This document shows positions 27,120 through 41,514 of a stretch of DNA of 64,000 nucleotides, piece by piece. The notes below the pieces were generated by a model that had not been told where the DNA came from, ran no database searches, and saw only the letters and a program-made list of their open reading frames with translations. This DNA is from an uncultured Methanomassiliicoccaceae archaeon (GTDB lineage Archaea > Thermoplasmatota > Thermoplasmata > Methanomassiliicoccales > JACIVX01). The stretch's first letter is position 1. Each line of letters starts with the position of its first letter. Location: NCBI GenBank assembly GCA_964544915.1, contig CAZJDY010000020.1, positions 4,843 to 68,842 on the forward strand, written 5' to 3'. The translations under genes and the position numbers were made by a program.

Positions 27120-27821
27120 ATGTTCAGGAACTCGATGCAAGGGCTCGACAAGATATTCCGGACGGACATAGACGCCCCGAAGGTCATTCTTGTGACCGGC
27201 CCGCCAGGGTCGATGAAGACGAGCTTCAGCTACTCTCTTATGTCCTCGTACCTCGAAAAAGCGGGAGAGTTTGGCTTGTACGTGACGCTTGAGGAGACCG
27301 CCGAAAGCCATCTGAAGAACATGCGTAGCCTCGGCGTCAAGATCAGTCCGAACCTGGAGATATCGGATTTCACCGATCTCAGGGAGCTCGACGAGGTGAT
27401 CGAGGTCGACAATCCGACCGACTACGTGCACTTCATCGAGCAGGTGATAGGTTACTTCAGGAACAAGCACAAGGAGAAGTTCACGGTCTTCGCCCTGGAC
27501 TCGATTGGGGCCCTATACTCACTTATGGAAGACGTGAAGTGCATGCGCAAGAAGATGTTCTACTTCTTCAAGACGCTGCGCGACTTCAACCTGATGTCCT
27601 TCGTCGTCATGGAACGCCCTCAGGGCGGCTCGAACGACATGCTCGGGAACGAGGTCTTTCTCGTCGATGGTATCATAGAGTTGGGTCTGGACAGGACGAG
27701 AGGGAAGCTCGTCAGATACATACGGGTCGACAAGATGAGGGCTTGCGAGCACAGCATGGAGAAGCATACGGTGGAGGTCGGGGAGGGCGGTCTGACGATA
27801 CTGGGCCCGACTCTGGTCTAG
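27120..27821 (+). CDS. KaiC/RecA-superfamily (ArlH/FlaH-sized) ATPase-like protein with a deviant Walker A
   Basis: The 233-aa size and pattern match single-domain KaiC-like proteins (VILVTGPPGSMKTSF...YVTLEE...FALDSIGALY...VDGIIEL...R.IRV.KMR). The P-loop reads GPPGSMKT, with Met in place of the Gly before Lys. Confidence 0.75.
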   Translation: MFRNSMQGLDKIFRTDIDAPKVILVTGPPGSMKTSFSYSLMSSYLEKAGEFGLYVTLEETAESHLKNMRSLGVKISPNLEISDFTDLRELDEVIEVDNPTDYVHFIEQVIGYFRNKHKEKFTVFALDSIGALYSLMEDVKCMRKKMFYFFKTLRDFNLMSFVVMERPQGGSNDMLGNEVFLVDGIIELGLDRTRGKLVRYIRVDKMRACEHSMEKHTVEVGEGGLTILGPTLV

Positions 27822-27852: not shown

Positions 27853-29103
27853 TTGAAAACTGGCATGTGGGAAACAGGAGGAAGGTTATTGCCCGAGGAT
27901 AGTGTTCCGATTTGGCAGGTCATCGAGGAGTTTAAGGACAAGATCAAGACGCAGGAAGTCGAGCTCAAGAAGCGAAGGGACGAACTCGACGTCCGCGACG
28001 CGGAGCTGAAGGAGCGGAAGAGGCTCCTCGACGAGCACGCGCAGAAGCTCGAGTCGAAAGGGAAGGAACTCGAAAAGCGCGAGGGCGAGCTGGTCCCGCG
28101 CGAGACCGAAGTCGCAAAGGTTGAGGCCGACCTTCGGACGATGTCGGCCGAGCTGAAGGAAAGGGACGGTGAGCTGCGCGCCGGAAGGCTCGGGCTCGAA
28201 AAACGCGAGCGTGAAATCACCCAGCAGGAAGGGGAAGTCCATAGGCTCACGGAGCAGACGAGCTCCTACGAGGGCAAGATAAAGCAGATGACCGACAGGA
28301 TCTCAGCGACTGAAGAGAAGCTTCTCGGCGAGGAACGGGAGATCAGGAAGATGCTCGACGATATCTCTTCGAAGAGGGAGGAGTTGCTCGCGAAAATCAA
28401 GGTCGTCGCGGAACAGGAAGGCCTTCTGGCGGAGAGCAAGCAGGTCGTCATGGACGAGCAGAAGAGATTCGTGGAGTGGGAGAGGATACTCAACGACCGC
28501 GAGGCGACGCTGAGCGAGCGCGAGAGGATACTGGTGAGGAAGGAGACGCGGGTTCCCGAGACGGTCGAGGTCAAGGAGAACATCTGTTCCAAGTGTGGTA
28601 GTGTTATTCCAGAGGGGTCTGACATTTGTTTGGCCTGCGTGGCTTTGGAGGCCGAGGCTAAGAGAGCCGAAGAAGAAGCTGCGAATAGGGTTGCAGAAGA
28701 GGAGGCAAGGAAGGCCGCCGAGGAAGAAGCCAGGAAGGCGGTGGAGGCTACCCAGGTTCAAGCGGCCACGGAAGTGGCGTCTGTGCTAGTGCCGGAGCCA
28801 GCACCGGTCGTAGTCGAGCGACCGGCTGCAGAACCGGTCGTTGAAGCTCAGCCCGAGCAGGTAGAAGCTTCGAAAGAGGAGCCCGCCCAGGAAGTGGTGA
28901 CGATTGAGAAGAGCTGCCCCAACTGTCGTACTATCGTTGACGCGAACGCGGAGAAGTGCTATGCCTGCGGAGCGGACCTGAGGGGAGTGGCCGAGGCGAA
29001 GGAGGAGGGGGTGCCCGCGGAGGAGAAGCTCGCGGACGAATCACAGAAGGGCCCGGAAGTGAAGCGGTCGGTGTCGATAAGAAGGATCATACGAAGAAAA
29101 TAA
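27853..29103 (+). CDS. Coiled-coil protein with two zinc ribbons and an acidic Ala/Glu/Pro linker
   Basis: About 230 aa of heptad-like K/E/R/L-rich sequence is followed by CSKCGSVIPEGSDICLAC, an AEEEARKA low-complexity stretch, CPNCRTIVDANAEKCYACG and a basic tail. Alternative ATG at 27865. Confidence 0.65.
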   Translation: MKTGMWETGGRLLPEDSVPIWQVIEEFKDKIKTQEVELKKRRDELDVRDAELKERKRLLDEHAQKLESKGKELEKREGELVPRETEVAKVEADLRTMSAELKERDGELRAGRLGLEKREREITQQEGEVHRLTEQTSSYEGKIKQMTDRISATEEKLLGEEREIRKMLDDISSKREELLAKIKVVAEQEGLLAESKQVVMDEQKRFVEWERILNDREATLSERERILVRKETRVPETVEVKENICSKCGSVIPEGSDICLACVALEAEAKRAEEEAANRVAEEEARKAAEEEARKAVEATQVQAATEVASVLVPEPAPVVVERPAAEPVVEAQPEQVEASKEEPAQEVVTIEKSCPNCRTIVDANAEKCYACGADLRGVAEAKEEGVPAEEKLADESQKGPEVKRSVSIRRIIRRK

Positions 29104-29292: not shown

Positions 29293-29300
29293 TTTATAAT
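29293..29300 (+). promoter_or_regulatory. TATA-box-like element upstream of the giant surface-protein gene
   Basis: TTTATAAT lies about 45 nt upstream of the ATG at 29345. GGTGG lies 5 nt before that ATG. Confidence 0.4.
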
Positions 29301-29344
29301 GTCATGCTCCTACTTTATTGCCAGTAAATGTACCAGGTGGGATA

Positions 29345-32300
29345 ATGAGATTAAGTGTTCTGGCGAGCAAAGCAGCTAGCTTTCTGATTGTGTGGAGCAT
29401 GATGTTCTCCTCATTTGCCGGCCTTATCGTGCTGGGAATACCAGGCGTTGGCCAGGCAGTGCTGCCGTCCGAGTATTCGAATGGCGATATGATAATTGGT
29501 ACCGATTACACGATCTCGAATTGGGCTATCAACAATCGGGTCGAATACATGGACGGGAACCTGACGATCCGCTCCGGAGGTGTCGTAACGATCACCAACG
29601 GAGGACTGAGCTTCACTCAGGATACTGGTCCAGACGGGATCGCCGGGACTTCCGATGACCATGTCTATACCCTCATCGTCGAGGACGGCGGCACGCTCGT
29701 CCTTGAGAAATCGATTCTGACCACCCACCTGGATCAGCGGAACGATTTCCCAAGTCTTGGCGTCATTGTTAGGAACGGAGGGGCGTTGGAGGCCAGGAAT
29801 TCAACACTTAAGTTCCCCGGTCACATGGTCGTCGATGATTCGACACTCATGATGTGGAATGCGACCGTCACTGGGCAGGACCCGACCGACATTGTAGAAT
29901 TCTGCAACCAGACGCAGTTCCAGTCTGACGCGTTCGACGATTCTCCGGTAATGCTGTTCGTTTCAAGTGTCGTCAATATCTACGATTCAGAGATCAATGG
30001 ATTGTTCGAGAACACCACCGGGGTGCCGCCTGCTTCTTTGTACAACCATTCATATAGCTTCGCTTCCGACGACGGAGACAGATCGGTAGTAACATATAAT
30101 ATCACAAGGACTGTCGCCGCTATAGGTGCAGGAAACCCGTCGGGTCAACTACTTGCGAACCTCACGATGGACGATTCGAGGCTTTTCGCAGTAGGGTCAG
30201 GCCAGCGGCTATTGACTTCTGGCATCGACGCAGCGGGCCTCGCGTTCTCAGGGACTTCCGGTGTGGTTGTCACATTGCATGCGAAGTACAAGACGGACGC
30301 AGGATATACGGGTTCGAATCCTATCCAATGGCAATACAACAAAGGACCTCTGAGATCTAGTGGAATCGTGCCTGCAGATACATCGTCGCCGTTTGGACCG
30401 AATCTGGAGGTAACCAGATATGCCAAGTTGCCAGCGATGTCTTCCGCGGATTTGAGCGGTCTGAACATCTCATTCGCAAACAGCGTCGCGAACAGGGTTT
30501 ACTTCAACAGACTGTGGGTCACCGTCGAGATGCCGATCCAGACCTTCCGGAATCTGACGCTTGCCGGATCGACGCAAATGACAGCTGTCAATTCCTACAT
30601 TTCGACCGACTTCTCAAACGATCCACTCGTGCACAATCAATTGGCCGTTCTTGACAACGCCGACGCCTATCTGTACGGCGTCTCCGCAGACATGTCTCAG
30701 ACCGCGTCACCCTCATTCGATCGCCGACCTGCGTACTCGACATCTGACAGAGCATTCAGCGCGACACCTTCAGCACTGGGGTCTGGAAATACTGCAGCAG
30801 GAGAATCGATTGCCAACCTCACTGCCAATGATAATAGATACTTCAACGTGAACAGTGGAGAGAGAATGGCGATTGATGGATTCAATGTCAGCAATCTAGT
30901 TGGTGAGATTTCCAATGCTGTACTCAATGTGATATACCTTACAGAATCTGGATATACAACAAGGACGTACGTCAATTGGAGTCTCGAGGGAGGCGCTCTC
31001 CAGAACACCTCTATTCAACCAGTCAACATCGGTGCGGAGACCCTGGCCTCATTCAACCTATACAATGCAGGAGTGCGCACGCTGAGTGATATCGCTCAGT
31101 TGAATGTTGCCTTCGATGACAGAGGAGGTCTATTCGTATATTTCGAGAGAGTCTGGATCGAGGTAACCCTAAGACCAAACATCTATGTGTACCGGTGGAT
31201 GAACTTCAAAGCCGTTGATTCGCAGTCCTTGCCGGTGCAGGGTGCGTGGGTGAACGCGACAGTGTCGGCTTCTGGTACCGCTGCGTACTACTACACTCCG
31301 TCAGGAGTGATAGGCGCACCGCCCACCGAGGTTCTTGACTACCTCGGAAAGGACGTTACCAGCTACAAGCGCACGAATCCATACGGCTCAGCAATGATAC
31401 CTCTGTTCTGGGAAATTGTCAATGAATCCACTATGCCGAATTCAGGGGTGCTGGGAGGGTATGACCTCAACGTGACTTACAGGAATGTCACAAGCGTTAT
31501 GTACTACTACACAACCGGTGTGAGCTTCGCACCATATCCAGCGCTTTCAGAGGCGGACCAGACCAAAGCGGTTACGGTAACACTGTCCAGTCTGGTGCTT
31601 GACAAGCCGGACTTGGTCGTCACAGCCCTGACTGCTCTGCCAACGACAGTATACGAGGACGACACGGTAACATTGACAGCGACGGCGGCGAACAACGGGC
31701 TAACGGCCGCGACCGATGTCCTGGTGACCTTCACGGACTTCTTCGGAGGCACGCTGACTGAGATCTCAAATGCAACTATTCCGTTCATGTTAGGCGCTTC
31801 GTCGACAGACGTGGTCGTGAGCTGGTCAAACACTCTACCGGGCGTTCACACCATAACCGCGAGAGTAGATCCTTTCGACAATGTCATCGAACGGAGTGAA
31901 TCGAACAACGAGCTATCGATTCAGGTCAATGTTCTGGCAAACCTACCCGAGCTGTCGATCGTCTCGAGCGACATCGTGATCGATCCTCAACCTGCCTATA
32001 CCGGCGCACAGGTCTTCGCGAACGCGACCATTCGCAACACACTCGGAAGAGCCAATGCAATAAACGCAGTCGTTGAGTTCTACATAGGCAACCCGATGAG
32101 CGGCGGACAGTTACTTGGATCGACGAGTGTCAATGTTCCAGCTGGAGGGTCGAACGTCTCCAGCTTCGAGTGGGTTCCGTCTCAGATTGGCGAGTACTCG
32201 ATTTATGTCTATGTCAACCGTTTAAGGGCAATCACAGAGTACGACTTCACAAACAACCTTGCATCCACGGACGTTATCGTTGAACTCTCGACAAACGAGT

Positions 32301-34912
32301 TCGACTTCGTCGTGGACGACAACAACATTGTGACCCTAGCAGGAACCGTGTTCCTGTGGGGTGCGAACATTATTGTGAAGGATAACGGCACACTGATTCT
32401 CAGCGATGTGGACCTTGTCCTAGTGCAGTCATCTGGGGACCAGTTCCTAATAATCATACAGGACAACGGTACCCTGATCTTGAACCAATCTCTCATCACA
32501 TCCGACTACAGCTTGAGGCTGTATCTATTCGACCACGCCTCTCTGGTGGTGACAAATGGCTCGATAATGAATCCGGTCGTCACCATCATTGCTGAAGACC
32601 AGTCCCGCATCGACATTGAATCTTCCACTGTGCACGCTGACATAATCGCACCTACAAAATCGAGCGTCGTCATGAATGCAGCGAACACTACATTCGGTCG
32701 CACCTGGTCCTCGTTCGGAGGGAACGCTGCGGCCTATCTGACGAACGTCAGCATACCCTCGCTCTCACCAGTAGACGGAGCGGTCGTCTACCACTACAGA
32801 TGGATAGTGGTGACCGTCGTCGACGGCAAGGGCGCCCCACTGCCTGGAGCCTTTGTCAACCTAGAGCATTACTTGAATGGAACGGTATCTGGTACTGGCA
32901 ACTCCGGTTCGAACGGACGGATAATGTTCCGTGCCCTCTGTGACAAGATCACGGCATCCTCAATGACTTACTTCGGCAGTTATCGATTGAACGCGACGTA
33001 CTGGTTCGACGATGTGGCTTACGAGACTGACGGATACACGACTGCATCCCTTGAGCCGTATTCAGTGCCGTTGACTCGCGATGTCATCATCTCCACCCTA
33101 ACGATACCGGACGCTGTAAGGGGGCCCGCGGATCTGGTGGCTCTGAGCATAGTGTTCACGCCGGCTAGTAGTCCGGTCAGCGTCAATACTCATCTCCTGA
33201 TGGACGCGAGAGCGGACAACATCGGTGAGACCGAGGCGTCGAACGTGGTCGTAAGGTTCTGGCTCGGAGCCGTGGGGACCGGGACGGTCATCGACGAGGT
33301 CACAGTGCCACTGATTAACCCAGGAGAGACCATTGTAGCCACAGGTGAGTGGGATGCTTCGGTCGATGTCGATCAGAAACTCCAGACCAGGACGATAGCG
33401 GTCGAGTTCAATCCAGGCCAGATCATAACTGAGATCTCGTATGCCAACAACATTGTCACACAGTCGATCCTTGTGGTCGATAGACGCCCCGATTTTGTGT
33501 TCCCAGACGGCATTGAAGTGACATCTGGTGGACACGTGACCGAGCAAGCTGTCGTCGGAGAATCCGTGGTCCTGGGCACTCAGGTTGAGAACGATGGATA
33601 CACATCTGCGATGGGCGTCGTGGTTGCCTTCTACATAATGGACTCTGACGGTCTGACGACGTACCTTGGAATGATCACGACGGATATCGCCAACAACGCC
33701 ACGGTCAACGCAAACCTGACTTGGGCGGTCAACACCACAAGTTTCGGACAGTTCGACCTGAAGATAGTGGTGAATCCGCTTGGATTGAAGGAGGAAGGGA
33801 ACTATGGCAACAATGAGATAACTGCGCAGTTCCAGATCAACGTGCCGAACCCGGTTATTGTCATCAACCTGAATGGCGTGTTCAGCTACAAGGCCGGCAC
33901 CGACGTGGTGGTCAGCGGTACGATAACCAACGAGATCAGTGGTGAACCCCTCATCGGTAGGCCCGTGTGGGTCAGTCTCGTGGATGCGTCCGGTAATGTC
34001 ATAGGTTCCAACGCGACTTCAACGACCACGTCGTCAGGCAGCTTCCAGACATCCAAGTACATCCCCCTAGGAGAGGAGGGAGACTACGAGATTCGAGTGA
34101 CGGTCCAGATCGGAGATCAGACATTCAGCAACAGCCAGGACATAACCGTCAATAGGGGCTTCATAGAGACGCCGACTGATTGGTGGATCTATGCAATCAT
34201 AATCGCCATAGTCGCCGCGATCATCATCTTCTTCTCGGTGTACCTATACAAGTACGGCCTGGGCAAGATGGTCGAGTGCGGCGAGTGCGGCGCCCTCATA
34301 CCAGAGTCCTCTAAGCGCTGCCCGAAGTGCGGCGTGGAGTTCGAGGCAGGAACGGCCAAGTGCAGCGAGTGCGGTGCTTGGATACCTGCGAGCTCGGGCG
34401 AGTGTCCGGAGTGCGGTGCGAAGTTCGTCACGGCCCCGATCCCGGAGGAAGAGGACGAATACATGAAGAAGATGAGGGAGCAGTACCAGCAGTTCGTGGA
34501 CGGATACAGGGAGCAGGCCAAGGGCGTATTAGGGAAGAAGTTCTCGGAGGCGAAGTTCGCTGACTGGTGGAAGAAGCAGCCCAGCCACACAACCTTCGAG
34601 AAGTGGCTGTCCCAGGAGGAGGAGCGCCGGAAGCTAGGTGCGTTCGCCTGCCCTGTCTGCGGCACGCTGAACCCAAGAGGTGCGAAGGTCTGCCACAAGT
34701 GCGGTACCGTCTTCGAGACTCCGAAGGAGGCCCCGAAGGAAGAGGGCGAAGAGGAAGGGAAGCCGAGGCTGAGGAGGATCGTCAAGAGGCCGGTGGAGAA
34801 GAAGGTCCTGAAGAAGGCTGAAGAGGCACCGGCGGAAGAGAGATCCTATGAGCAGCCCGGAGCACCGCCAGAGGAAGAGAGCTCCAAGGATGAGGAACCG
34901 AAGACCACATAG
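29345..34912 (+). CDS. Giant (1856 aa from the ATG at 29345; 1864 aa in the ORF track) type I membrane surface protein with beta-helix-like and CARDB-like regions, a C-terminal transmembrane helix and a cytoplasmic triple zinc-ribbon tail
   Basis: N-terminal hydrophobic signal (ASFLIVWSMMFSSFAGLIVLGIPGVGQA). Parallel-beta-helix-like repeats occur in two places (LTIRSGGVVTITNGG, VEDGGTLVLEKS, VRNGGALEARNS and again IVKDNGTLILSD, IQDNGTLILNQS). At least four CARDB-like modules are present (e.g. KPDLVVTALTALPTTVYEDDTVTLTATAANNG), with numerous NxS/T sequons. The transmembrane helix is WWIYAIIIAIVAAIIIFFSVYLY at 34181-34249. Three CxxC-x(n)-CxxC ribbons and a K/E-rich tail follow. Confidence 0.8.
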   Translation: MRLSVLASKAASFLIVWSMMFSSFAGLIVLGIPGVGQAVLPSEYSNGDMIIGTDYTISNWAINNRVEYMDGNLTIRSGGVVTITNGGLSFTQDTGPDGIAGTSDDHVYTLIVEDGGTLVLEKSILTTHLDQRNDFPSLGVIVRNGGALEARNSTLKFPGHMVVDDSTLMMWNATVTGQDPTDIVEFCNQTQFQSDAFDDSPVMLFVSSVVNIYDSEINGLFENTTGVPPASLYNHSYSFASDDGDRSVVTYNITRTVAAIGAGNPSGQLLANLTMDDSRLFAVGSGQRLLTSGIDAAGLAFSGTSGVVVTLHAKYKTDAGYTGSNPIQWQYNKGPLRSSGIVPADTSSPFGPNLEVTRYAKLPAMSSADLSGLNISFANSVANRVYFNRLWVTVEMPIQTFRNLTLAGSTQMTAVNSYISTDFSNDPLVHNQLAVLDNADAYLYGVSADMSQTASPSFDRRPAYSTSDRAFSATPSALGSGNTAAGESIANLTANDNRYFNVNSGERMAIDGFNVSNLVGEISNAVLNVIYLTESGYTTRTYVNWSLEGGALQNTSIQPVNIGAETLASFNLYNAGVRTLSDIAQLNVAFDDRGGLFVYFERVWIEVTLRPNIYVYRWMNFKAVDSQSLPVQGAWVNATVSASGTAAYYYTPSGVIGAPPTEVLDYLGKDVTSYKRTNPYGSAMIPLFWEIVNESTMPNSGVLGGYDLNVTYRNVTSVMYYYTTGVSFAPYPALSEADQTKAVTVTLSSLVLDKPDLVVTALTALPTTVYEDDTVTLTATAANNGLTAATDVLVTFTDFFGGTLTEISNATIPFMLGASSTDVVVSWSNTLPGVHTITARVDPFDNVIERSESNNELSIQVNVLANLPELSIVSSDIVIDPQPAYTGAQVFANATIRNTLGRANAINAVVEFYIGNPMSGGQLLGSTSVNVPAGGSNVSSFEWVPSQIGEYSIYVYVNRLRAITEYDFTNNLASTDVIVELSTNEFDFVVDDNNIVTLAGTVFLWGANIIVKDNGTLILSDVDLVLVQSSGDQFLIIIQDNGTLILNQSLITSDYSLRLYLFDHASLVVTNGSIMNPVVTIIAEDQSRIDIESSTVHADIIAPTKSSVVMNAANTTFGRTWSSFGGNAAAYLTNVSIPSLSPVDGAVVYHYRWIVVTVVDGKGAPLPGAFVNLEHYLNGTVSGTGNSGSNGRIMFRALCDKITASSMTYFGSYRLNATYWFDDVAYETDGYTTASLEPYSVPLTRDVIISTLTIPDAVRGPADLVALSIVFTPASSPVSVNTHLLMDARADNIGETEASNVVVRFWLGAVGTGTVIDEVTVPLINPGETIVATGEWDASVDVDQKLQTRTIAVEFNPGQIITEISYANNIVTQSILVVDRRPDFVFPDGIEVTSGGHVTEQAVVGESVVLGTQVENDGYTSAMGVVVAFYIMDSDGLTTYLGMITTDIANNATVNANLTWAVNTTSFGQFDLKIVVNPLGLKEEGNYGNNEITAQFQINVPNPVIVINLNGVFSYKAGTDVVVSGTITNEISGEPLIGRPVWVSLVDASGNVIGSNATSTTTSSGSFQTSKYIPLGEEGDYEIRVTVQIGDQTFSNSQDITVNRGFIETPTDWWIYAIIIAIVAAIIIFFSVYLYKYGLGKMVECGECGALIPESSKRCPKCGVEFEAGTAKCSECGAWIPASSGECPECGAKFVTAPIPEEEDEYMKKMREQYQQFVDGYREQAKGVLGKKFSEAKFADWWKKQPSHTTFEKWLSQEEERRKLGAFACPVCGTLNPRGAKVCHKCGTVFETPKEAPKEEGEEEGKPRLRRIVKRPVEKKVLKKAEEAPAEERSYEQPGAPPEEESSKDEEPKTT
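30113..30535 (+). repeat. Copy 1 of an internally duplicated ~135-140-aa module inside the giant protein (protein-level repeat)
   Basis: AIGAGNPSGQLLANLTMDDSRLFAVGSGQRL...LSGLNISFANSVANRVYFNRLWVTVEMP aligns by eye with copy 2. Confidence 0.6.
30773..31175 (+). repeat. Copy 2 of the internally duplicated module inside the giant protein
   Basis: ALGSGNTAAGESIANLTANDNRYFNVNSGERM...IAQLNVAFDDRGGLFVYFERVWIEVTLRP. Anchors shared with copy 1 are G.GN, ANLT..D.R.F.V.SG.R and N..F......VYF.R.W..V. Confidence 0.6.
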
Positions 34913-35114: not shown

Positions 35115-36803
35115 CTAAGTCATTTTCTCCCTTATTTCTTTGACAGTCCTCTCGGGGTCCTTGTAATATGCCGAGATTATGTTTGCGACCTGCTTGTAGT
35201 TGTCGACGCCTATCTTCTTCATGTACTCGAGGATGTCAACCCTGCGCTTCACCTCGCGCTCCATCTCCCTCGGGGACCAGTTCCTTATCGCCCTGACCTT
35301 CTCGTATACATAGGAGTGCCCGCTGAAGTTGAACGTATCGTCCGCGGGGTTCCAAGTGTGGACGGCGTTCGTGATGAGCTCTCCGGTCTCCGGGTCCATG
35401 CCGACGATCTCGGTCAGGGATTTGACCCTCCTCGTCATCTTCGTGCCTACTTTTACCTGCGCTTGTAGGAGCACGATGTCGAGCGCCGTCAGCAATGCTC
35501 TCGGGAGGTTGATTGGGTCGTTCTCCATCCTGTGCACCATCGCCTGAACGTCCTCTGCGTGGAAGGTCGAATAGGCGGTCTTGCCGGTCGCCATCGCCTG
35601 GAATACGACGTAGGCCTCCTTGCCTCTGACCTCACCAACCATTAGGTACTGAGGTCTCTGCCTCAGCGCGGTCGTCAATAGCTCGAACATGTCAATCGTG
35701 CCGGTCTTGCCGCCGCCCCTGCCGCCAAAGCCCTCTCTTGTGAGGGACGGAATCCAGTTCTCGTGAGGCAGGTTGAGCTCCCTGGTGTCCTCGATGCTGA
35801 CAATCTTCATTTGTGGCGGTATGAACAGCAATACTGCGTTCAAAGTCGTCGTCTTGCCGCTCGCGGTACCTCCGCAGACGAGCATCGAGCTACCGTATTC
35901 GGTAGCGATCCAAAGATAGGCCATCATGTCAGTGCTCATCGTTCTGAATTTGAGCAGATCGATCGGGGTGAACGGGTTCTCCTTGAAGCGTCTGATCGTG
36001 AAGGACGATCCCCTCTTCGTGACGTACTTTCCTAGGGTCGCATTGAGCCTCGAGCCGTCCGGTATGGTAGCGTCAAGTAACGGGTCAGCGACGGATATGT
36101 GCTTTCCGCACTTCTGTGCCAACCAGACGACGAACGCGTCGAGTTCCATCTCCTTCTCGAATCTGATGTTCGATCTGATCGATCCGTATTTTCTGTGGTA
36201 GATGTAAAGTGGAATGTCAACCCCGTCGCAAGAGCAGTCCTCAACGTTCGGGTCGGTCATCATGACATCTATTGCACCATATCCGATGAAGTCCCTCCGG
36301 AGAAAGTATATGATCCTGTCCTTCGACACCGGGTGGAGTGTCACGCCGAACGTTTTCATGAGGGTATCTGTCGCCTTGTTTAGGATATTATCCTTCTCGA
36401 CGGCCGACTCGATCTCCGCCAGGTTCAGCGTCATTATGAGTGCGTTCTTGAGCAGCTCCAGAAGGTTGCGTTCGTCTCCAGACAGGTTCGGCTCGATTAC
36501 CTCATAGAGGTACTCTCCTCCGACGTTGTCGTACCTTATCCGTACGAACGAGTAGGGGTCCATGATCTTCGAGATCTCGACCTCGTCGACTCCGGGGTCC
36601 GATATCTTCGGTATCTCTGTTATGACGTCGAGCGGTCCTTTGTTGACCTCGGATGGAATCATGATCTTCATCGGTTTGCTCTTCAGCTTGAGCAAGAATG
36701 AAAGGTATCTGCTTGAGAACCCGCCGCCTGACCTTCTCTCCTTTGCTTCCTCTTCAGCTCTCTCCTCAGGGAGAGGTCCTTCCATTCTAGCGGCATCTGT
36801 CAT
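35115..36803 (-). CDS. FlaI/ArlI-TadA (GspE/VirB11) family secretion ATPase, paralogue 1
   Basis: Walker A GGTASGKTT, EDTRELNLPHENWIP, Walker B region LMVGEVRGKE, and FQAMATGKTAYSTFHA. Confidence 0.9.
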   Translation of the reverse strand: MTDAARMEGPLPEERAEEEAKERRSGGGFSSRYLSFLLKLKSKPMKIMIPSEVNKGPLDVITEIPKISDPGVDEVEISKIMDPYSFVRIRYDNVGGEYLYEVIEPNLSGDERNLLELLKNALIMTLNLAEIESAVEKDNILNKATDTLMKTFGVTLHPVSKDRIIYFLRRDFIGYGAIDVMMTDPNVEDCSCDGVDIPLYIYHRKYGSIRSNIRFEKEMELDAFVVWLAQKCGKHISVADPLLDATIPDGSRLNATLGKYVTKRGSSFTIRRFKENPFTPIDLLKFRTMSTDMMAYLWIATEYGSSMLVCGGTASGKTTTLNAVLLFIPPQMKIVSIEDTRELNLPHENWIPSLTREGFGGRGGGKTGTIDMFELLTTALRQRPQYLMVGEVRGKEAYVVFQAMATGKTAYSTFHAEDVQAMVHRMENDPINLPRALLTALDIVLLQAQVKVGTKMTRRVKSLTEIVGMDPETGELITNAVHTWNPADDTFNFSGHSYVYEKVRAIRNWSPREMEREVKRRVDILEYMKKIGVDNYKQVANIISAYYKDPERTVKEIREKMT

Positions 36804-36806
36804 TCT

Positions 36807-37757
36807 CTATCCTCCTATGACTCTCGTTCCGATAAAGCCGATGGCTAACATGATGAAGCTGTGCCTTAGTCCATTGGTGATTCTGCCATCCTGGAGGACA
36901 CCTGCGAGGATGCCGTCACCGAAAGCATGGAGTACTACCGCAATCACGAAGATCAACTGGACCTGCGGGATGACTTTGGTCTGTATGGTTGCTGGCATAT
37001 TCGTTATGCCAGCCGCTTCGGCGCCCTCTGCGACCTGCTGGCCCGCTTCCGCCATCTTCGGCAGGAAGGTCGAGTTCAGGATGAATATCGTCGCAATGAA
37101 CACCATGAACGCGATGTAGATGACGACCATGTATGTCGACATGGCTATCTTCCTCTCGTTCTCGTTAAGCATCGTCTCCCTCGCGTCGTGGGCGACCATT
37201 GTGAGGACATCCGCGACGCTTCCGCCGGCATCGTTCGCCTTGATAATGATTGACATCATCCTGTTGACGAGGGGCGTGTTCACCCTCTCTGCAAACAGGC
37301 GAATCGCATCGGCTGCCGGTACTCCCCAGTCTATCTGAGCGGCCATCCTCTTTATCTCTGGCGTCAGTTTGCCGTACCTGCCTCTAGATGAGACCTTGAT
37401 CGCCTCGGCCAATGTCATGCCGAATCGCCCAGCTTCGGCCACATCTCTGAGGAAATCCGGCAGTCTAGACTCTATTTCCTTTATCTTCTTGTGACGGGAG
37501 GTCATGTAGAAGCCATACGGTCCACTCATCGCCATTAGTCCGAAGGCGAGGAAGTCTATCCATTCTAGACCGGTGCTTAGTCCTCCGATGGCGTCCAGGA
37601 ATCCCACAAAGAACAGTACGACTGCTATGACGACACCCACTATGAGGATTATCCTGGCATAATCCCTCTTGTTCGTCTTGAGCTGGTCGATGTCTAGGAT
37701 TCGCTCCTTCTTGCCCTCCTTCTTCTTCTCTTTCCCCTTCCTAGCCATCCCGATCAC
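36807..37757 (-). CDS. Single T2SSF-domain membrane protein (FlaJ/TadC-like, C-terminal-half equivalent)
   Basis: 316 aa. A cytoplasmic helical domain (LAEAIKVSSRGRYGKLTPEIKRMAAQIDWGVPAADAIRLFAERV...DAGGSVADVL) is flanked by transmembrane helices. There is a 3-nt spacer to each neighbouring gene. Confidence 0.75.
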   Translation of the reverse strand: MIGMARKGKEKKKEGKKERILDIDQLKTNKRDYARIILIVGVVIAVVLFFVGFLDAIGGLSTGLEWIDFLAFGLMAMSGPYGFYMTSRHKKIKEIESRLPDFLRDVAEAGRFGMTLAEAIKVSSRGRYGKLTPEIKRMAAQIDWGVPAADAIRLFAERVNTPLVNRMMSIIIKANDAGGSVADVLTMVAHDARETMLNENERKIAMSTYMVVIYIAFMVFIATIFILNSTFLPKMAEAGQQVAEGAEAAGITNMPATIQTKVIPQVQLIFVIAVVLHAFGDGILAGVLQDGRITNGLRHSFIMLAIGFIGTRVIGG

Positions 37758-37760: not shown

Positions 37761-38801
37761 TCATAGGCTGGTCTCCTTGGTAATGTTCCATATGAAGAAG
37801 ATGAATCCGAACTGGGAGATTGGAATCATCAGTCCGACCACCGCATAGAGGAGGGTGATGGTCATGTCCGATGAGCCCCCTCCGCCAGGAACGATTGCCA
37901 TTATCGCCATGATGACGACAAGAAACAAAGGAAATGCGACGACGACAGTGACGAAGGACTCGGCCATAAGACCAAGGGTCTCGAGCTGCGAGCGCATCTC
38001 AAGCTTGCCCTCCTTCTCGAACTGCTCCGCCTTCTGCAGGAAGTAAGGTTTCAGCTGACCGCCGGAAGTGGAGGTCGTGACGACACCCTGTAGGAACTCC
38101 TGAAATCTGGAGGACGGGGTTCTCTGGGCCGCATTGTTTATCGCAGTCAGTATGTCGATCCCGAGGAGTTCTGTGTCCCTCGTGATCCACTCTGCCTCAT
38201 CCCTGATCTCGCCGTAAATCTCTTGCCTCGAAAGTTCCTTGAAAATGACGTCGACGTTGACATCTGCGGATGCCATCGCGGAAATGAAGCTCATCGCAGG
38301 GCCGATTCTCTTGTCTATGTCCCTGCCCCTGCGCTTCGCCTTCGACGCCGGCTGCGAGATCAGGACGACGTACGCCAGCATCGGGGGTATAGCAACCATA
38401 AGCACGAGTCCGACCAGGACGAGCGCGGCGTCGATCTTCAGGAAGCTCAGGATGATGCCGCCCATGAGAACAGCGACGACCCCGGCCACGGCGCCGACGA
38501 GTATGGTCGTCATCCAGACGTAAGCCACATATTCCTCCGTTCGCATCTTCATGTGGGCCTGGAGCAGGCTCTGTTCGAGCTTGGGGTTCGGTTTAGCTTT
38601 CAGTTTCACAAACGCTCCCAAAGTCCTCCAGCAGAACTCCTGATACTTCGTGAGCTTGATGTAATCTGGAATAGCGCCCTGGGGAAGCCTGACAACGTGG
38701 GGGCCGGCGATCTCAGGCTTATCTTCCGCCCTCTTGGTCTTCAGATACGACTTCTTCGAGGCCTCTAATCTCGCAAATATGTCAGAGACTTCGGGCGCCA
38801 A
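37761..38801 (-). CDS. Single T2SSF-domain membrane protein (FlaJ/TadC-like, N-terminal-half equivalent)
   Basis: 346 aa with the same transmembrane-helix/helical-domain/transmembrane-helix layout (ISAMASADVNVDVIFKELS...AINNAAQRTPSSRFQEFLQGVVTTSTSGGQL). The predicted TTG start overlaps the upstream ATPase by 20 nt. Confidence 0.7.
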   Translation of the reverse strand: MAPEVSDIFARLEASKKSYLKTKRAEDKPEIAGPHVVRLPQGAIPDYIKLTKYQEFCWRTLGAFVKLKAKPNPKLEQSLLQAHMKMRTEEYVAYVWMTTILVGAVAGVVAVLMGGIILSFLKIDAALVLVGLVLMVAIPPMLAYVVLISQPASKAKRRGRDIDKRIGPAMSFISAMASADVNVDVIFKELSRQEIYGEIRDEAEWITRDTELLGIDILTAINNAAQRTPSSRFQEFLQGVVTTSTSGGQLKPYFLQKAEQFEKEGKLEMRSQLETLGLMAESFVTVVVAFPLFLVVIMAIMAIVPGGGGSSDMTITLLYAVVGLMIPISQFGFIFFIWNITKETSL

Positions 38802-40587: not shown

Positions 40588-41514
40588 TCAGATCTGAACC
40601 CCGACGTTCACGAATGCTCGGTTATAAGTCATCATCCCAGCGTTCACTATCTTAAGTGTGACAGTGTGGACGTTGTCGTTCACCGGCAGATCCCTTATGG
40701 AGTAATCTCCTGAGCTCAGGGAGTAATCTCCTAAGATCAGTCCGGCCTTCGAGCACAGGTCGCCAAGGTATTGTTGCCATGCCGTCCAATAGCGGGTCGT
40801 AAGGGTGATGTTGACGTACTTGTCGGTCAAGTATCCAACGGCATAGTCCTGGGAATCGATGTACACGAGGTTCAGATTCAGGCCAACAGTGCCGGTCCCG
40901 CCGACACTTGCGTTGGTCCCTATGAAGTCAATCTGAGTGAACTTGATGTTGATCGCCGATCCAATCTTCTCGACCTCCAAGCTAGGGTATGCCCTAATGA
41001 TCTGACCGTCCTGTTGCTTGACGATCATCGCACCGTTCTCGTACGCCACCCACTGCTGGACGTAATACCTGTTTGGAGCGTACAGCTCCACCATGCCGCC
41101 TCCAGACTCCGACACGCTCGTCTTGGAGCCCTCAAGCGAATAGTTGAAGCATACCTTGACGCCCGAATCACCCATCCCCTGGGGCGAGTACGTCAGCAAT
41201 CCGGCGGTCGGGGAAGCGAAAACCGGTATCCCTGCCGCGCCGAGAGGTATCGGCGAGTACATGTGGATCGAGGTGGAACCAGTCACTTGAGCAGTGACGA
41301 TCAGGTTGTCGATCTTCCCTTTGAGGTCACCGAACTGATTGATCGCCTGGCTCATATGTGCTCTCTCATTGTCCTGCATCCACACAGGAATGTAAGAGTT
41401 GGTGAACATTGAAAGGAATGTCATGAATACCAGCAGGGCCATGATCGTACCCACGGTCGACGCGACACCTTCCTCGTCGCGTCTCAAGAAGTGACGCTTG
41501 TCTAGCCTAGTCAT
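40588..41514 (-). CDS. Archaeal type IV pilin-like protein (class III signal-peptide-like N-terminus plus a large beta-rich domain)
   Basis: MTRLDKRHFLRRDEEGVASTVGTIMALLVFMTFLSMF has a charged leader, G|VAS, then a hydrophobic helix, as in archaeal prepilins. It is the first gene of the operon. The ORF could extend to 41550. Confidence 0.6.
   Translation of the reverse strand: MTRLDKRHFLRRDEEGVASTVGTIMALLVFMTFLSMFTNSYIPVWMQDNERAHMSQAINQFGDLKGKIDNLIVTAQVTGSTSIHMYSPIPLGAAGIPVFASPTAGLLTYSPQGMGDSGVKVCFNYSLEGSKTSVSESGGGMVELYAPNRYYVQQWVAYENGAMIVKQQDGQIIRAYPSLEVEKIGSAINIKFTQIDFIGTNASVGGTGTVGLNLNLVYIDSQDYAVGYLTDKYVNITLTTRYWTAWQQYLGDLCSKAGLILGDYSLSSGDYSIRDLPVNDNVHTVTLKIVNAGMMTYNRAFVNVGVQI

What the first reader, a model, noticed from the sequence alone, without database searches (positions are those of the whole stretch)
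29345..34912. Giant surface protein (1856 aa from the 29345 ATG) whose cytoplasmic tail carries three zinc ribbons
The protein has an N-terminal signal-like hydrophobic segment and about 1600 aa of predicted extracellular sequence. That region contains two parallel-beta-helix-like regions, at least four CARDB-like modules and numerous NxS/T sequons.

A single transmembrane helix lies at 34181-34249. A roughly 220-aa intracellular tail follows, with three CxxC-x(n)-CxxC ribbons (34277-34420 and 34649-34705) and a K/E-rich end.

S-layer and adhesin-type proteins normally end shortly after the anchor. A structured metal-binding cytoplasmic tail suggests coupling of a giant extracellular structure to an intracellular partner. 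The gene has its own TATA-like element and converges on the filament operon.
Basis: partly seen in the sequence, partly recalled or inferred. Interest (0 to 1): 0.7.

Follow-up and report, generated by a model that had tools for sequence, protein, structure and literature searches.

The report
Giant archaeal surface protein, zinc-ribbon tail
This gene encodes a huge cell-surface protein of a wall-less methanogen relative, and its short zinc-binding tail inside the cell is the best-conserved part of an unstudied protein family that nearly always sits beside a pilus-building machine, so the cell's outer coat may be wired to an internal motor.

Summary
ORF 29345-34912 (+) encodes a 1855-aa type-I membrane protein: signal peptide, about 1570-aa ectodomain (four CARDB modules, enriched N-glycosylation sequons), one TM helix, and a 220-aa tail with three CxxC-x10-CxxC zinc ribbons.

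New here: the tail is the most conserved part (63-79% identity against 30-50% in the ectodomain). It contains a confidently predicted three-helix domain with no Pfam family. It ends in an acidic disordered linker carrying a basic motif, LRRIVKRP. The upstream coiled-coil zinc-ribbon protein carries the same motif at its C-terminus.

The tail defines a family in at least 232 Thermoplasmatota species genomes, always at the C-terminus of 1100-4500-aa proteins, and known only from uncultured organisms.

All 83 loci read keep the order KaiC-like, coiled-coil protein, giant, then a convergent operon of two ArlI-like ATPases, a split platform protein and a prepilin. Three distant lineages with unrelated flanks keep the giant-to-ATPase junction, 9-30 bp apart.

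Best reading: an envelope component coupled through its tail to a CdiP-type pilus machine. The partner is inferred, not shown.

It is not a recognisable canonical S-layer protein. Beta-helix HMMs fail, but AlphaFold2 supports an all-beta N-terminal module. Unannotated and uncharacterised; a new variant of a known kind.

The parts
29293..29299 (+). TATA-like element TTTATAA, about 46 nt upstream of the ATG
   Evidence: Read directly. A hairpin plus T-rich stretch at 29102-29117, after the upstream gene's stop, suggests a separate transcript. Function is inferred.
29335..29341 (+). Shine-Dalgarno-like AGGTGGG, 4 nt before the ATG
   Evidence: Read directly. Supports the start at 29345.
29345..34912 (+). 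Giant surface protein gene, 1855 aa plus stop codon
   Evidence: An identical protein, P0001, lies on a 276-kb NCBI contig; 50 family homologues (E <= 1e-80) were found.
29345..29458 (+). Sec-type signal peptide (residues 1-38; hydrophobic core 14-32; GQA|V site)
   Evidence: The cleavage site is inferred from sequence; no dedicated predictor was available.
29450..31579 (+). N-terminal ectodomain module (residues 36-745): all-beta, with beta-helix-like runs, two paralogous jelly-roll (CBM-like) inserts and a terminal beta-sandwich
   Evidence: AlphaFold2 pLDDT 89, pTM 0.89. Foldseek hits CBM22 tandem, BcsB, reelin repeat and tailspike depolymerases at E 1e-5 to 1e-3 but TM 0.10-0.16. No Pfam family.
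31604..32299 (+). CARDB modules 1-2 (residues 754-985)
   Evidence: Pfam CARDB 107 bits in four stretches. PDB CARDB-like 2kut/2l0d.
32297..32794 (+). Second beta-helix-like region (residues 985-1150), a paralogue of the N-terminal region
   Evidence: In phmmer, this segment matches positions about 50-110 of many homologues. Not modelled; no Pfam hit.
33152..33874 (+). CARDB modules 3-4 (residues 1270-1510)
33911..34105 (+). Membrane-proximal prealbumin-like (CarboxypepD_reg-like) domain, residues 1523-1587
   Evidence: Pfam 23.3 bits, below the cut-off of 32.3, but 17 of 24 relatives match, best E 6e-8.
34181..34249 (+). Single transmembrane helix (residues 1613-1635)
   Evidence: Hydropathy 2.85. 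AlphaFold2 helix at pLDDT above 90. Positive-inside bias.
34277..34414 (+). Zinc ribbons 1 and 2 (Cys 1645/1648/1659/1662 and 1673/1676/1687/1690), a double zinc ribbon
   Evidence: Pfam DZR 36.2 bits. All eight Cys are invariant with fixed spacing across the family.
34442..34633 (+). Three-helix domain between the ribbons (residues 1700-1763) with invariant Y1706, M1710, Y1714, F1738, W1741, W1754, E1759
   Evidence: AlphaFold2 pLDDT 91-93. Invariant columns. No Pfam family at E <= 0.1. No significant PDB fold match.
34649..34702 (+). Zinc ribbon 3 (Cys 1769/1772/1783/1786)
   Evidence: Pfam Zn_Ribbon_1 and Zn_ribbon_3. Cys invariant.
34769..34792 (+). Basic-hydrophobic linear motif LRRIVKRP inside a disordered acidic/proline-rich tail
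   Evidence: Present in 78 of 83 tails against 0.1% of composition-matched shuffles, and in 113 of 129 family representatives. Lies in the pLDDT < 50 region.
27120..27821 (+). KaiC/ArlH-like single-domain protein (233 aa) with non-canonical P-loop GPPGSMKT
   Evidence: Pfam KaiC 126 bits; weak ArlH/FlaH matches. P-loop variant in 46 of 48 orthologues. Sits upstream of the giant in all loci with enough flank and in L089.
27853..29103 (+). Coiled-coil protein with two zinc ribbons, an acidic linker and a C-terminal ...VSIRRIIRRK
   Evidence: The C-terminal motif is conserved in orthologues and in distant L089.
35115..36803 (-). ArlI/PilB3-like ATPase a (canonical Walker A), convergent with the giant gene
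   Evidence: T2SSE plus PilB3_C. FlaI model 435 bits, cut-off 550. GGTASGKT.
36807..37757 (-). Platform protein, C-terminal half of ArlJ/TadC
   Evidence: T2SSF. Matches ArlJ model positions 260-542.
37761..38801 (-). Platform protein, N-terminal half of ArlJ/TadC
   Evidence: T2SSF. Matches ArlJ model positions 4-243.
38782..40572 (-). ArlI/PilB3-like ATPase b
   Evidence: Best rate co-variation with the tail.
40588..41550 (-). Prepilin-like protein (DUF7289) with a class-III-type N-terminus ...DEEG|VASTVGTIMALLVF
   Evidence: The same N-terminus is conserved in distant loci L087, L090 and L092.
42458..44410 (-). Long coiled-coil plus KaiC-like domain protein (650 aa) with P-loop GPPFVGKE
   Evidence: Conserved in position.

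Best explanation
The gene encodes the envelope-side component of a conserved Thermoplasmatota surface apparatus.

The protein is exported by a Sec-type signal peptide and held in the membrane by one C-terminal helix. Outside the cell it presents a fast-evolving, probably N-glycosylated stalk: a beta-helix/CBM-like head, CARDB (Ig-like) modules and a prealbumin-like base. This would contribute to the disordered 'exterior protein layer' that replaces an S-layer in this phylum.

Inside the cell, a slowly evolving tail acts as a docking module. It runs zinc ribbon, zinc ribbon, three-helix domain, zinc ribbon, acidic disordered linker, then a basic RRIVRR-type motif.

My best guess is that the structured part of the tail binds the cytoplasmic face of the adjacent CdiP-type pilus machine, which has two ArlI-like ATPases and a split ArlJ-like platform. 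I also propose that the basic motif engages an acidic site or the membrane. The upstream coiled-coil zinc-ribbon protein carries the same motif, so it would engage the same target. The surface layer, the motor and a KaiC-like/coiled-coil cytoplasmic scaffold would then be tied into one unit. That unit would work as an anchor or stator, or as a positional hub.

Shown here: the anatomy, the topology indicators, conservation of the tail, the shared motif and the gene linkage.
Inferred: zinc binding, glycosylation, every physical contact, and the anchoring role.
For: (1) Tail conservation. Identity to the window protein across 44 homologues is 0.59-0.79 in residues 1601-1800 and 0.30-0.55 through most of the ectodomain. 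The structured tail diverges as slowly as gyrA (mean distance 0.47 against 0.49) and less than half as fast as its own ectodomain at 1.07. All 12 Cys and their spacing are invariant.

(2) The tail folds. AlphaFold2 gives a TM helix, three ribbons and a three-helix domain at pLDDT above 90, followed by a disordered end.

(3) Family size. 232 species-representative genomes encode it. There are 233 clusters (50% identity) at E < 1e-30. In the 79 representatives of at least 1300 aa that were inspected, the tail is always C-terminal, on proteins of 1388-4499 aa, while the ectodomain modules vary.

(4) Gene linkage. The order gyrBA, KaiC-like, coiled-coil, giant, then convergent ATPase, platform half, platform half, ATPase, prepilin, coiled-coil-KaiC is present in all 83 loci as far as each contig reaches (gene calls).

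(5) Linkage survives shuffling of the flanks. The low-GC loci L087, L090 and L092 have unrelated neighbours, yet the giant's stop lies 9-30 bp from the ATPase gene's stop. L089 keeps KaiC-like, coiled-coil and giant without gyrase. L085 has the ATPase/platform genes 7 kb away.

(6) Shared motif. The giant carries LRRIV[KR]RP and the coiled-coil protein ends in VSIRKIIKRK. In a second clade these become MVIRRPIDRKVVPKKIIKTP and PQIFVKKIVKKK. The pairings are A/A 25, B/B 18 and mixed 1. The motif occurs in 0.1% of shuffles.

(7) Rate co-variation. Tail distances track ATPase b (r = 0.92, partial on gyrA 0.77) and ATPase a (0.89, 0.67). They track KaiC233 (0.67, 0.20) and the coiled-coil protein (0.74, 0.29) less well. 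This is suggestive only.

(8) Literature.
- A two-ATPase, split-platform pilus machine (CdiP) and an unidentified about 20-nm exterior protein layer were described in Thermoplasmatales (PMC12448462).
- Large C-terminally anchored 'S-layer-like' proteins, zinc-ribbon proteins, coiled-coil proteins and KaiC-like ATPases recur in archaeal type IV pilus loci (PMC4858521).
Against: - No physical interaction was tested or modelled. The structure tool returns no interface information and accepts only single chains.
- The giant and the pilus operon are convergent, so they are not co-transcribed. Within the 80 related species, gyrBA and thiC are equally syntenic, so much of that conservation could be inheritance rather than selection.
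- One distant sub-lineage (L084, L091; probably L088) has the giant between a nitroreductase gene and tgt, with no pilus, KaiC-like or coiled-coil gene within 10 kb.
- The motif co-variation rests on essentially two clades.
- The distance-correlation analysis uses 24 related loci and a short gyrA control, and it cannot exclude phylogenetic artefacts.
- Both KaiC-like proteins have non-canonical P-loops, so an ATP-driven role for them is doubtful.
- All members come from uncultured organisms, so no expression, abundance or localisation data exist.
Confidence: 0.55

Rival explanations
1. It is simply the main envelope protein (S-layer or exterior-protein-layer subunit) of these archaea. On this view the tail serves the protein itself: membrane retention, lateral clustering through zinc ribbons, or insertion and quality control. 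The proximity to the pilus operon would be inherited gene order without functional meaning.
For: - Size, signal peptide, C-terminal anchor, sequon enrichment, and low Cys and Lys content outside the cell all fit archaeal envelope glycoproteins.
- The ectodomain evolves fast, as exposed proteins do.
- gyrBA and thiC are equally syntenic in the 80 related species.
- One sub-lineage lacks pilus neighbours.
- The exterior protein layer of Thermoplasmatales is still unidentified.
Against: - No match to any S-layer family in Pfam, NCBIfam or PDB.
- The junction with the pilus ATPase gene persists, 9-30 bp apart, in three distant lineages where every other neighbour has changed.
- A self-serving anchor does not explain why a soluble coiled-coil protein encoded next door carries the same terminal motif.
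- A coat protein at S-layer copy number, with three zinc sites each, would need a zinc supply comparable to a whole cell's quota (my own estimate from general knowledge, not tested).
Confidence: 0.25
2. It is a transmembrane sensor that relays signals from outside to inside. The CBM-like/beta-helix head would bind a glycan or surface. The zinc-ribbon tail would sequester or release a cytoplasmic regulator, such as the KaiC-like pseudo-ATPases or the coiled-coil protein, to switch pilus assembly. This would be analogous to RsgI-type anti-sigma factors or to bacterial FimV/HubP hubs.
For: - The head resembles carbohydrate-binding modules and glycan depolymerase tailspikes at the domain level.
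- KaiC-like proteins were proposed as regulators of archaeal type IV pili (PMC4858521).
- KaiC-like, coiled-coil and giant stay together in L089, without nearby pilus ATPases but with three more KaiC-like genes and two Pilin_N genes within 5 kb.
- The degenerate P-loops fit a switch or scaffold role rather than a motor.
Against: - Foldseek TM-scores are low (0.10-0.16), so ligand binding is a guess.
- No known signalling domain is present in the tail.
- Tail evolution tracks KaiC233 and the coiled-coil protein least well.
- The low-GC lineage keeps the giant and the pilus operon without KaiC-like or coiled-coil genes immediately upstream.
Confidence: 0.15
3. It is an ordinary adhesin whose C-terminal extension is a lineage-specific, dispensable appendage, or the cysteine-rich region actually lies outside the cell.
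For: CARDB-rich giant proteins are common adhesin-like proteins. Zinc-ribbon Pfam models match promiscuously; JGI even labels these proteins 'ribosomal protein L40E'.
Against: - The tail is the most conserved region and defines the family.
- The positive-inside bias, the absence of sequons and the K/E-rich composition all place it in the cytoplasm.
- The ectodomain is almost Cys-free: 132 Cys in 78,838 residues, against 540 in 9,624 tail residues across the family.
Confidence: 0.03

Closest known systems
'S-layer-like' large proteins with a single C-terminal TM helix encoded in archaeal type IV pilus loci (e.g. arCOG05471; Makarova, Koonin and Albers 2016, PMC4858521)
   Same: A large secreted protein, anchored by one C-terminal helix, encoded beside the ATPase and TadC genes. 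KaiC-like, coiled-coil and zinc-ribbon proteins also occur in such loci.
   Different: - Those proteins were described with conserved extracellular cysteines and no structured cytoplasmic tail. Here the ectodomain is nearly Cys-free, and a 220-aa zinc-ribbon/helical tail is the conserved core.
- That census reported no secretion ATPases in three Methanomassiliicoccus-related ('Thermoplasmatales') genomes.
- Sequence relationship to arCOG05471 was not tested.
CdiP pilus machinery and exterior protein layer of Cuniculiplasma divulgatum (Gaines et al. 2025, PMC12448462)
   Same: The neighbouring operon has the same unusual layout: two ATPases and a platform protein split into N- and C-terminal halves. 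The phylum is the same, and that paper reports an unidentified about 20-nm glycoprotein layer in place of an S-layer.
   Different: - The paper does not mention a giant zinc-ribbon-tailed protein, a KaiC-like protein or a coiled-coil partner.
- Orthology of the window's proteins to CdiPE1/2 and CdiPFa/b was not tested by sequence.
- No family member from a cultured Thermoplasmatales species was seen.
Archaellum stator and scaffold: ArlF/ArlG (outside), ArlX or ArlCDE (inside), ArlH (KaiC-like)
   Same: The concept is the same: an ArlI/ArlJ-type motor tied to the envelope outside and to a KaiC-like protein plus a coiled-coil scaffold inside. Both ATPases match the FlaI model best, and KaiC233 weakly matches ArlH.
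   Different: - There is no homology between the giant and ArlF/G, or between the coiled-coil protein and ArlX/ArlCDE; no such hits appeared.
- Here one polypeptide spans the membrane.
- The ATPases score below the FlaI cut-off (435 and 410 against 550 bits).
- No archaellin-family match was seen among the cluster's proteins.
Bacterial FimV/HubP/TspA hub proteins of type IV pili (general knowledge, not tested here)
   Same: A bitopic protein with an extracytoplasmic domain, one TM helix and a long, highly acidic cytoplasmic region. It organises pilus components and regulators.
   Different: - Unrelated domains: LysM, TPR and the FimV C-terminal domain, against CARDB, beta-helix-like and zinc ribbons.
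- Opposite size balance: here the outside part is giant.
- A different domain of life.
Double-zinc-ribbon (Pfam DZR, PF12773) membrane proteins, including arCOG07264 and arCOG06883 in archaeal pilus loci
   Same: A cytoplasmic CxxC-x(n)-CxxC ribbon pair next to a TM helix. The DZR model is matched above its threshold. Zinc-ribbon proteins recur in archaeal pilus loci.
   Different: - As described in PMC4858521, arCOG07264 has an N-terminal ribbon; that such proteins are generally small is my own general knowledge.
- Here the ribbons are C-terminal to a 1600-aa ectodomain. They are combined with an undescribed three-helix domain, a third ribbon and a terminal basic motif.
RsgI-type anti-sigma factors of cellulolytic clostridia (general knowledge, not tested here)
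   Same: An extracellular carbohydrate-binding module, a single TM helix and a cytoplasmic partner-binding domain, acting as an outside-to-inside relay.
   Different: Opposite orientation (their cytoplasmic domain is N-terminal), much smaller, and the partner is a sigma factor, which archaea lack. No sequence similarity was found.

Membership tests
Canonical archaeal S-layer protein | Homology to a described S-layer family or solved S-layer structure | tested here: not met
   No S-layer family in Pfam or NCBIfam. PDB sequence search finds only CARDB-like domains and weak ribbons. Foldseek on residues 36-745 finds no S-layer protein.
Canonical archaeal S-layer protein | Signal peptide plus a C-terminal anchor that ends shortly after the TM helix (or a PGF-CTERM lipid anchor) | tested here: not met
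   The signal peptide and a single TM helix are present. However, the TM helix is followed by 220 structured, conserved residues.
Canonical archaeal S-layer protein | Forms a paracrystalline lattice and is among the most abundant proteins | not testable with these tools
   No expression, proteomic or imaging data; all members come from uncultured organisms.
CARDB-domain cell-surface proteins (PF07705) | CARDB domains above the Pfam gathering score | tested here: met
   107 bits against 22.7, four stretches. 24 of 24 relatives match.
Double zinc ribbon / zinc-ribbon proteins (PF12773, PF13240, PF13248) | Model match above threshold, with four Cys ligands per ribbon conserved | tested here: met
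   DZR 36.2 against 27.3; Zn_Ribbon_1 38.9 against 25; Zn_ribbon_3 30.1 against 27. All 12 Cys are invariant.
Double zinc ribbon / zinc-ribbon proteins (PF12773, PF13240, PF13248) | Actual metal binding | not testable with these tools
   Needs metal analysis of recombinant tail.
Right-handed parallel beta-helix proteins (Beta_helix / NosD / pectate-lyase-like) | HMM match to a beta-helix family | tested here: not met
   No such hit at E <= 1 in the protein, or at E <= 0.01 in 24 family members.
Right-handed parallel beta-helix proteins (Beta_helix / NosD / pectate-lyase-like) | Predicted three-dimensional beta-helix | tested here: inconclusive
   The confident all-beta model has regularly spaced short strands. 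Tailspike depolymerases (6tku, 5w6h, 9qrm) are among the hits, but TM-scores are 0.10-0.14. Coordinates could not be inspected.
Pilus-locus 'S-layer-like' accessory protein (PMC4858521) | Large secreted protein with a single C-terminal TM helix, encoded next to the ATPase and TadC genes | tested here: met
Pilus-locus 'S-layer-like' accessory protein (PMC4858521) | Several conserved extracellular cysteines (disulfides), as described for arCOG05471 | tested here: not met
   2 Cys in 1568 ectodomain residues here. Across the family, 132 Cys in 78,838 ectodomain residues.
CdiP-type pilus machinery (applies to the neighbouring operon) | Two secretion ATPases and a platform protein split into N- and C-terminal halves in one operon | tested here: met
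   (ArlJ model positions 4-243 and 260-542 on separate genes). Layout as described.
CdiP-type pilus machinery (applies to the neighbouring operon) | Sequence orthology to the C. divulgatum CdiPE1/2, CdiPFa/b and CdiPB proteins | not tested
Archaellum (ArlB, ArlF/G, ArlH/I/J, ArlX or ArlCDE) | ArlI, ArlJ and ArlH at equivalog score, with archaellin and ArlF/G present | tested here: not met
   FlaI model 435 and 410 bits against a cut-off of 550. ArlH 24.8 and 28.1 bits against 215. None of the cluster's proteins matched ArlB, ArlF or ArlG models; the rest of the window was not screened for them.

The most novel reading that the evidence does not exclude
Wall-less Thermoplasmatota may possess an integrin-like link across the membrane. 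On this reading, this giant glycoprotein is a principal component of the still-unidentified exterior protein layer. Its zinc-ribbon/three-helix tail would clamp that layer to the double-ATPase CdiP-type pilus motor. Through the shared RRIVRR-type motif, the tail would also connect to a cortical scaffold of coiled-coil protein and KaiC-like pseudo-ATPases. The assembly would act as the stator and/or a mechanosensor for a pilus in cells that have no S-layer to push against.
Probability: 0.25. Interest if true: 0.8.

Novelty: new variant of a known kind. Interest (0 to 1): 0.62.

Why it matters
Archaea of this phylum mostly lack an S-layer. Two questions are open. What makes up their about 20-nm exterior protein layer? 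How are pili or archaella braced in the membrane without a rigid wall? (PMC12448462.)

This family is a concrete candidate that can be tested for both. It is giant, surface-exposed and present in at least 232 species. It is linked to the unusual two-ATPase/split-platform pilus machine. It is also the only component with substantial domains on both sides of the membrane.

The tail supplies a new, sharply defined sequence signature: two ribbons, a three-helix domain with invariant aromatic residues, a third ribbon and a basic motif. This signature can be used to annotate proteins now labelled 'hypothetical', 'CARDB domain-containing' or, wrongly, 'ribosomal protein L40E'.

The motif shared with the coiled-coil neighbour gives a specific binding hypothesis to test.

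The main limitation is that every member comes from an uncultured organism.

Tried and rejected
(1) Beta-helix by HMM. Pfam was searched at E <= 1 on the protein and at E <= 0.01 on 24 relatives, with no Beta_helix or NosD hit. The claim now rests only on the AlphaFold2 strand pattern and weak Foldseek hits.

(2) Fold identity of the tail. Foldseek against PDB gave nothing at E <= 0.001. There were only isolated ribbon look-alikes: eL40, RanBP2-type fingers and the ArnA ribbon. The 'L40e' and 'PRK14559' NCBIfam hits are ribbon noise.

(3) Fold identity of the head. The 43 hits at E <= 0.001 all have TM-scores of 0.16 or less. They are domain-level resemblances only, and no overall homologue exists.

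(4) Complex prediction of the tail with KaiC233 and the coiled-coil C-terminus. I prepared paired fusion rows but did not submit them. I used that job for the ectodomain instead.

(5) Search for a cultured host. Cluster look-ups and a third homologue search with a low-GC member found only metagenome-assembled sources. No Aciduliprofundum, Cuniculiplasma or Methanomassiliicoccus luminyensis entry appeared. Absence is not proven, because the word-indexed search is incomplete.

(6) Literature. Four full-text searches found no paper describing this family or a zinc-ribbon cytoplasmic tail on an archaeal surface protein. The Thermococcales hypervariable Ig-protein module (PMC8416519) is unrelated.

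(7) The sigma-70 promoter and terminator scan is not meaningful for an archaeon. I used only the hairpin after the upstream gene.

(8) Rfam found only the two tRNAs.

(9) I considered that the basic motif could be a membrane-targeting or nucleic-acid-binding patch rather than a protein-binding motif. This cannot be distinguished with the tools at hand.

Full report
**What is in the window.** The frame is open from a TTG at 29318 to the stop at 34910-34912. The ATG at 29345 gives 1855 residues. A TTTATAA element at 29293-29299 and AGGTGGG at 29335-29341 precede this ATG. A hairpin with a T-rich tail follows the upstream gene (29102-29117). This is inference from position; no transcript data exist.

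The window comes from a Methanomassiliicoccales archaeon. An identical protein, P0001, sits on a 276-kb NCBI contig, and the named relatives are Methanomassiliicoccales genomes assembled from metagenomes.

**Topology.** Hydropathy finds only two strong segments: residues 14-32 (the signal-peptide core, with GQA|V near residue 38) and residues 1613-1635. Across 45 homologues the flank before the helix carries on average 0.62 K+R and the flank after it 2.04.

The 1568-residue ectodomain has these features:
- 1.3% Lys and 26.5% Asn+Ser+Thr.
- Only 2 Cys.
- 33 NxS/T sequons, against 21.3 +/- 4.0 in shuffles.

The 219-residue tail has 12% Lys, 17% Glu, no sequon, and 12 Cys, all in CxxC motifs. Family-wide the contrast is 132 Cys in 78,838 ectodomain residues against 540 in 9,624 tail residues. 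Every available indicator places the ribbons in the cytoplasm. No dedicated topology predictor was available.

**Ectodomain.**
- Pfam finds four CARDB stretches (107 bits) and a sub-threshold prealbumin-like domain next to the membrane. 17 of 24 relatives match that domain.
- Nothing in Pfam, NCBIfam or the PDB sequence set covers residues 36-750 or 985-1270.
- In particular there is no Beta_helix or NosD hit in this protein or in 23 relatives.
- AlphaFold2 on a 13-sequence alignment of residues 36-745 gave a confident all-beta model (pLDDT 89, pTM 0.89). It shows runs of regularly spaced short strands, two longer-stranded inserts and a terminal sandwich.
- Foldseek matched carbohydrate-binding-module tandems, BcsB, reelin repeats, malectin-like ectodomains and phage tailspike depolymerases at E 1e-5 to 1e-3, but TM-scores were only 0.10-0.16. 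These are domain-level resemblances and not an overall homologue.
- The 985-1150 segment is a sequence paralogue of the N-terminal part.

**Tail.** AlphaFold2 on a 20-sequence alignment (A1) predicts the following layout:
- The TM helix.
- Two ribbons.
- A three-helix domain (residues 1700-1763, pLDDT 91-93).
- A third ribbon.
- A disordered end of about 60 residues.

The helical domain has invariant Y1706, M1710, Y1714, F1738, W1741, W1754 and E1759. It has no Pfam family and no significant PDB fold match.

In a full-length alignment of 44 homologues, identity to the window protein is 0.59, 0.79, 0.63 and 0.66 in the four 50-residue blocks from 1601 to 1800. Through most of the ectodomain it is 0.30-0.55, with one N-terminal block at 0.65. 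The six CxxC motifs keep exactly the same spacing in all complete homologues.

**A shared linear motif.** Within the disordered, acidic, proline-rich end lies LRRIVKRP (nt 34769-34792). A motif of this type follows the last ribbon in 78 of 83 tails, against 0.1% of composition-matched shuffles. It is also present in 113 of 129 family representatives, often repeated.

The protein encoded just upstream (27853-29103) is a coiled coil followed by two ribbons and an acidic linker. It ends in ...VSIRRIIRRK. Its orthologues end in VSIRKIIKRK in Methanomassiliicoccales and in PQIFVKKIVKKK in a second Thermoplasmata clade. In that second clade the giant's motif is MVIRRPIDRKVVPKKIIKTP. The motif types pair A/A in 25 loci, B/B in 18 and mixed in 1. 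Even the distant locus L089 follows the pattern.

Two neighbouring proteins thus carry the same terminal signature on similar flexible linkers. This suggests a common target: a protein surface or the membrane. The co-variation rests on about two clades and is confounded by phylogeny.

**The family.** A pattern scan of one genome per species, confirmed by tblastn, found the tail in 232 genomes. The 80 best are Methanomassiliicoccales and other Thermoplasmata/Thermoplasmatota assemblies. An exhaustive profile search of 1.84 billion representatives gave 233 clusters at E < 1e-30. In the 79 representatives of at least 1300 aa that were inspected, the tail lies at the C-terminus of proteins of 1388-4499 aa. 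The ectodomain modules recognisable by single-sequence search vary from member to member, while the tail is found in all.

Source annotations read 'hypothetical', 'CARDB domain-containing', 'subtilase family' or, spuriously, 'ribosomal protein L40E'. No member from a cultured strain was found. Four literature searches found no description of the family.

**Genomic context.** In the window the gene order is as follows:
- gyrB, gyrA.
- A 233-aa KaiC/ArlH-like protein.
- The coiled-coil zinc-ribbon protein.
- The giant.
- On the other strand, converging on the giant: an ArlI/PilB3-like ATPase, the C-half and then the N-half of an ArlJ/TadC platform, a second ATPase, and a DUF7289 prepilin-like protein.
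- A tRNA-Phe gene and a conserved 145-aa ORF.
- A 650-aa coiled-coil plus KaiC-like protein.

tblastn of these proteins against 83 loci showed the same order wherever the contig reached (gene calls). Because thiC and gyrBA are equally conserved there, this alone could be inherited synteny.

Distant members are more telling:
- Three low-GC loci (L087, L090, L092) have entirely different flanks. Yet the giant's stop lies 9-30 bp from the stop of the ATPase, platform half, platform half, ATPase, prepilin operon. The prepilin N-terminus is conserved.
- L089 keeps KaiC-like, coiled-coil and giant without gyrase.
- L085 has the ATPase and platform genes 7 kb away.
- One sub-lineage (L084, L091) shows no such neighbours within 10 kb.

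The linkage to the pilus operon is therefore maintained across shuffling in most lineages, but not in all.

**Relation to published work.** Gaines et al. 2025 (PMC12448462) described the CdiP pilus machine in Cuniculiplasma divulgatum. It has two ATPases and a platform split into two genes, which they called unique among archaea. They also described a disordered exterior protein layer about 20 nm thick, of unknown composition, in place of an S-layer.

The window's convergent operon has that layout. Sequence orthology to the CdiP proteins was not tested.

Makarova et al. 2016 (PMC4858521) noted several recurrent accessories of archaeal type IV pilus loci:
- Large C-terminally anchored 'S-layer-like' proteins.
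- Zinc-ribbon proteins.
- Coiled-coil proteins.
- KaiC-like ATPases.

They also noted two ATPases in one locus in Aciduliprofundum, and no secretion ATPases in three Methanomassiliicoccus-related genomes.

The giant fits the 'S-layer-like accessory' slot. It differs in lacking extracellular cysteines and in having the conserved cytoplasmic module.

**Which partner?** I compared pairwise distances across 24 loci. The table gives the correlation of each protein's distances with those of the structured tail.

| Compared protein | r | Partial r, controlling for gyrA |
|---|---|---|
| ATPase b | 0.92 | 0.77 |
| ATPase a | 0.89 | 0.67 |
| Giant's own N-terminal ectodomain | 0.87 | 0.66 |
| KaiC650 | 0.84 | 0.59 |
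| Coiled-coil protein | 0.74 | 0.29 |
| KaiC233 | 0.67 | 0.20 |

The structured tail evolves as slowly as gyrA (0.47 against 0.49). This mirror-tree result is weak evidence: the pairs are related, the control is short and rates differ. It points to the motor ATPases as the more likely contact for the structured tail.

Both KaiC-like proteins carry conserved non-canonical P-loops: GPPGSMKT in 46 of 48 orthologues, and GPPFxGKE in 54 of 57. Both ATPases keep GGTASGKT. The KaiC-like proteins may therefore be scaffolds or switches rather than motors.

**Conclusion.**
- Shown: a giant type-I surface protein with a conserved, folded, Cys4-ribbon-rich cytoplasmic tail. It is the hallmark of a large, unannotated Thermoplasmatota family. 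It is genomically tied to a CdiP-type pilus operon and shares a terminal motif with a neighbouring coiled-coil protein.
- Inferred: the tail docks the surface protein to the pilus motor and/or a KaiC-like/coiled-coil scaffold, acting as anchor, stator or hub (confidence 0.55).
- Rivals: a self-contained coat protein (0.25), an outside-to-inside sensor (0.15), and a dispensable appendage or external tail (0.03).

It is a new variant of a known kind, not a categorically new system. Its interest lies in offering a testable candidate for two open questions: what forms the exterior protein layer, and how pili are braced in archaea that lack an S-layer.

Noticed in passing
window 27120-27821 (+) and 42458-44410 (-): Both KaiC-like proteins of the cluster have conserved non-canonical Walker A motifs. 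One is GPPGSMKT (Met where the second Gly should be; 46 of 48 orthologues). The other is GPPF[TIV]GKE (Glu in place of Ser/Thr; 54 of 57). The two pilus ATPases keep GGTASGKT. The KaiC-like proteins may be pseudo-ATPases.
   Followed up: partly
window 27853-29103 (+): This is a coiled-coil protein with two zinc ribbons, an acidic linker and a C-terminal VSIRRIIRRK. The terminus is conserved to the last residue across orthologues. It mirrors the motif in the giant's tail.
   Followed up: yes
window 35115-41550 (-): The operon has two ArlI-like ATPases, a platform protein split into separate N-half and C-half genes, and a 320-aa prepilin-like protein. This is the same layout as the CdiP pilus machinery of Cuniculiplasma divulgatum, described in 2025 as unique. 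Here it is seen in more than 80 species.
   Followed up: partly
window 18446-20677 (-) and 17307-18440 (+): A 743-aa archaeal protein combines a bacterial-type DnaA ATPase domain (203 bits) and an Hda lid with a C-terminal DUF835. It sits next to a 377-aa protein with an N-terminal double zinc ribbon. A DUF835 gene and a zinc-ribbon gene are adjacent in L003 too.
   Followed up: no
window 7477-12843 (+) and 49501-52254 (-): There are two Lhr-type helicases. The larger (1788 aa) carries AlkZ-like DNA glycosylase and winged-helix domains at its C-terminus.
   Followed up: no
window 20771-20861 (+) and 41821-41913 (+): Both tRNA genes are long (about 90 nt), probably because they contain introns. 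ARAGORN could not name the anticodon of the first. The second (tRNA-Phe) sits inside the pilus cluster, between the prepilin gene and a 145-aa ORF.
   Followed up: no
window 41993-42430 (+): This 145-aa ORF has no Pfam or NCBIfam match. An unannotated ORF of similar size (143, 140 and 148 aa) is called at the same position in L001, L002 and L003, so it may belong to the cluster; sequence homology between them was not checked.
   Followed up: partly
L001 3393-7235; L002 1506-7925: The gyrase genes of relatives carry inteins: gyrA in L001, and both gyrB and gyrA (with a LAGLIDADG domain) in L002. The window's gyrB and gyrA have none.
   Followed up: no
L087, L092 (tails of P0297, P0296): A low-GC lineage (35-46% GC) carries a fourth zinc ribbon in the tail. 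The stop-to-stop distance to the ATPase gene is only 9-30 bp.
   Followed up: partly
L079 (2-kb contig labelled Paceibacterota); P0316 (labelled Thermotogaceae): The archaeal tail sequence appears on short contigs assigned to bacterial bins. These are most likely binning errors and not horizontal transfer.
   Followed up: no
L002 16392-16952: In one relative, an extra 186-aa protein consisting of double zinc ribbons is encoded directly after the giant gene.
   Followed up: no
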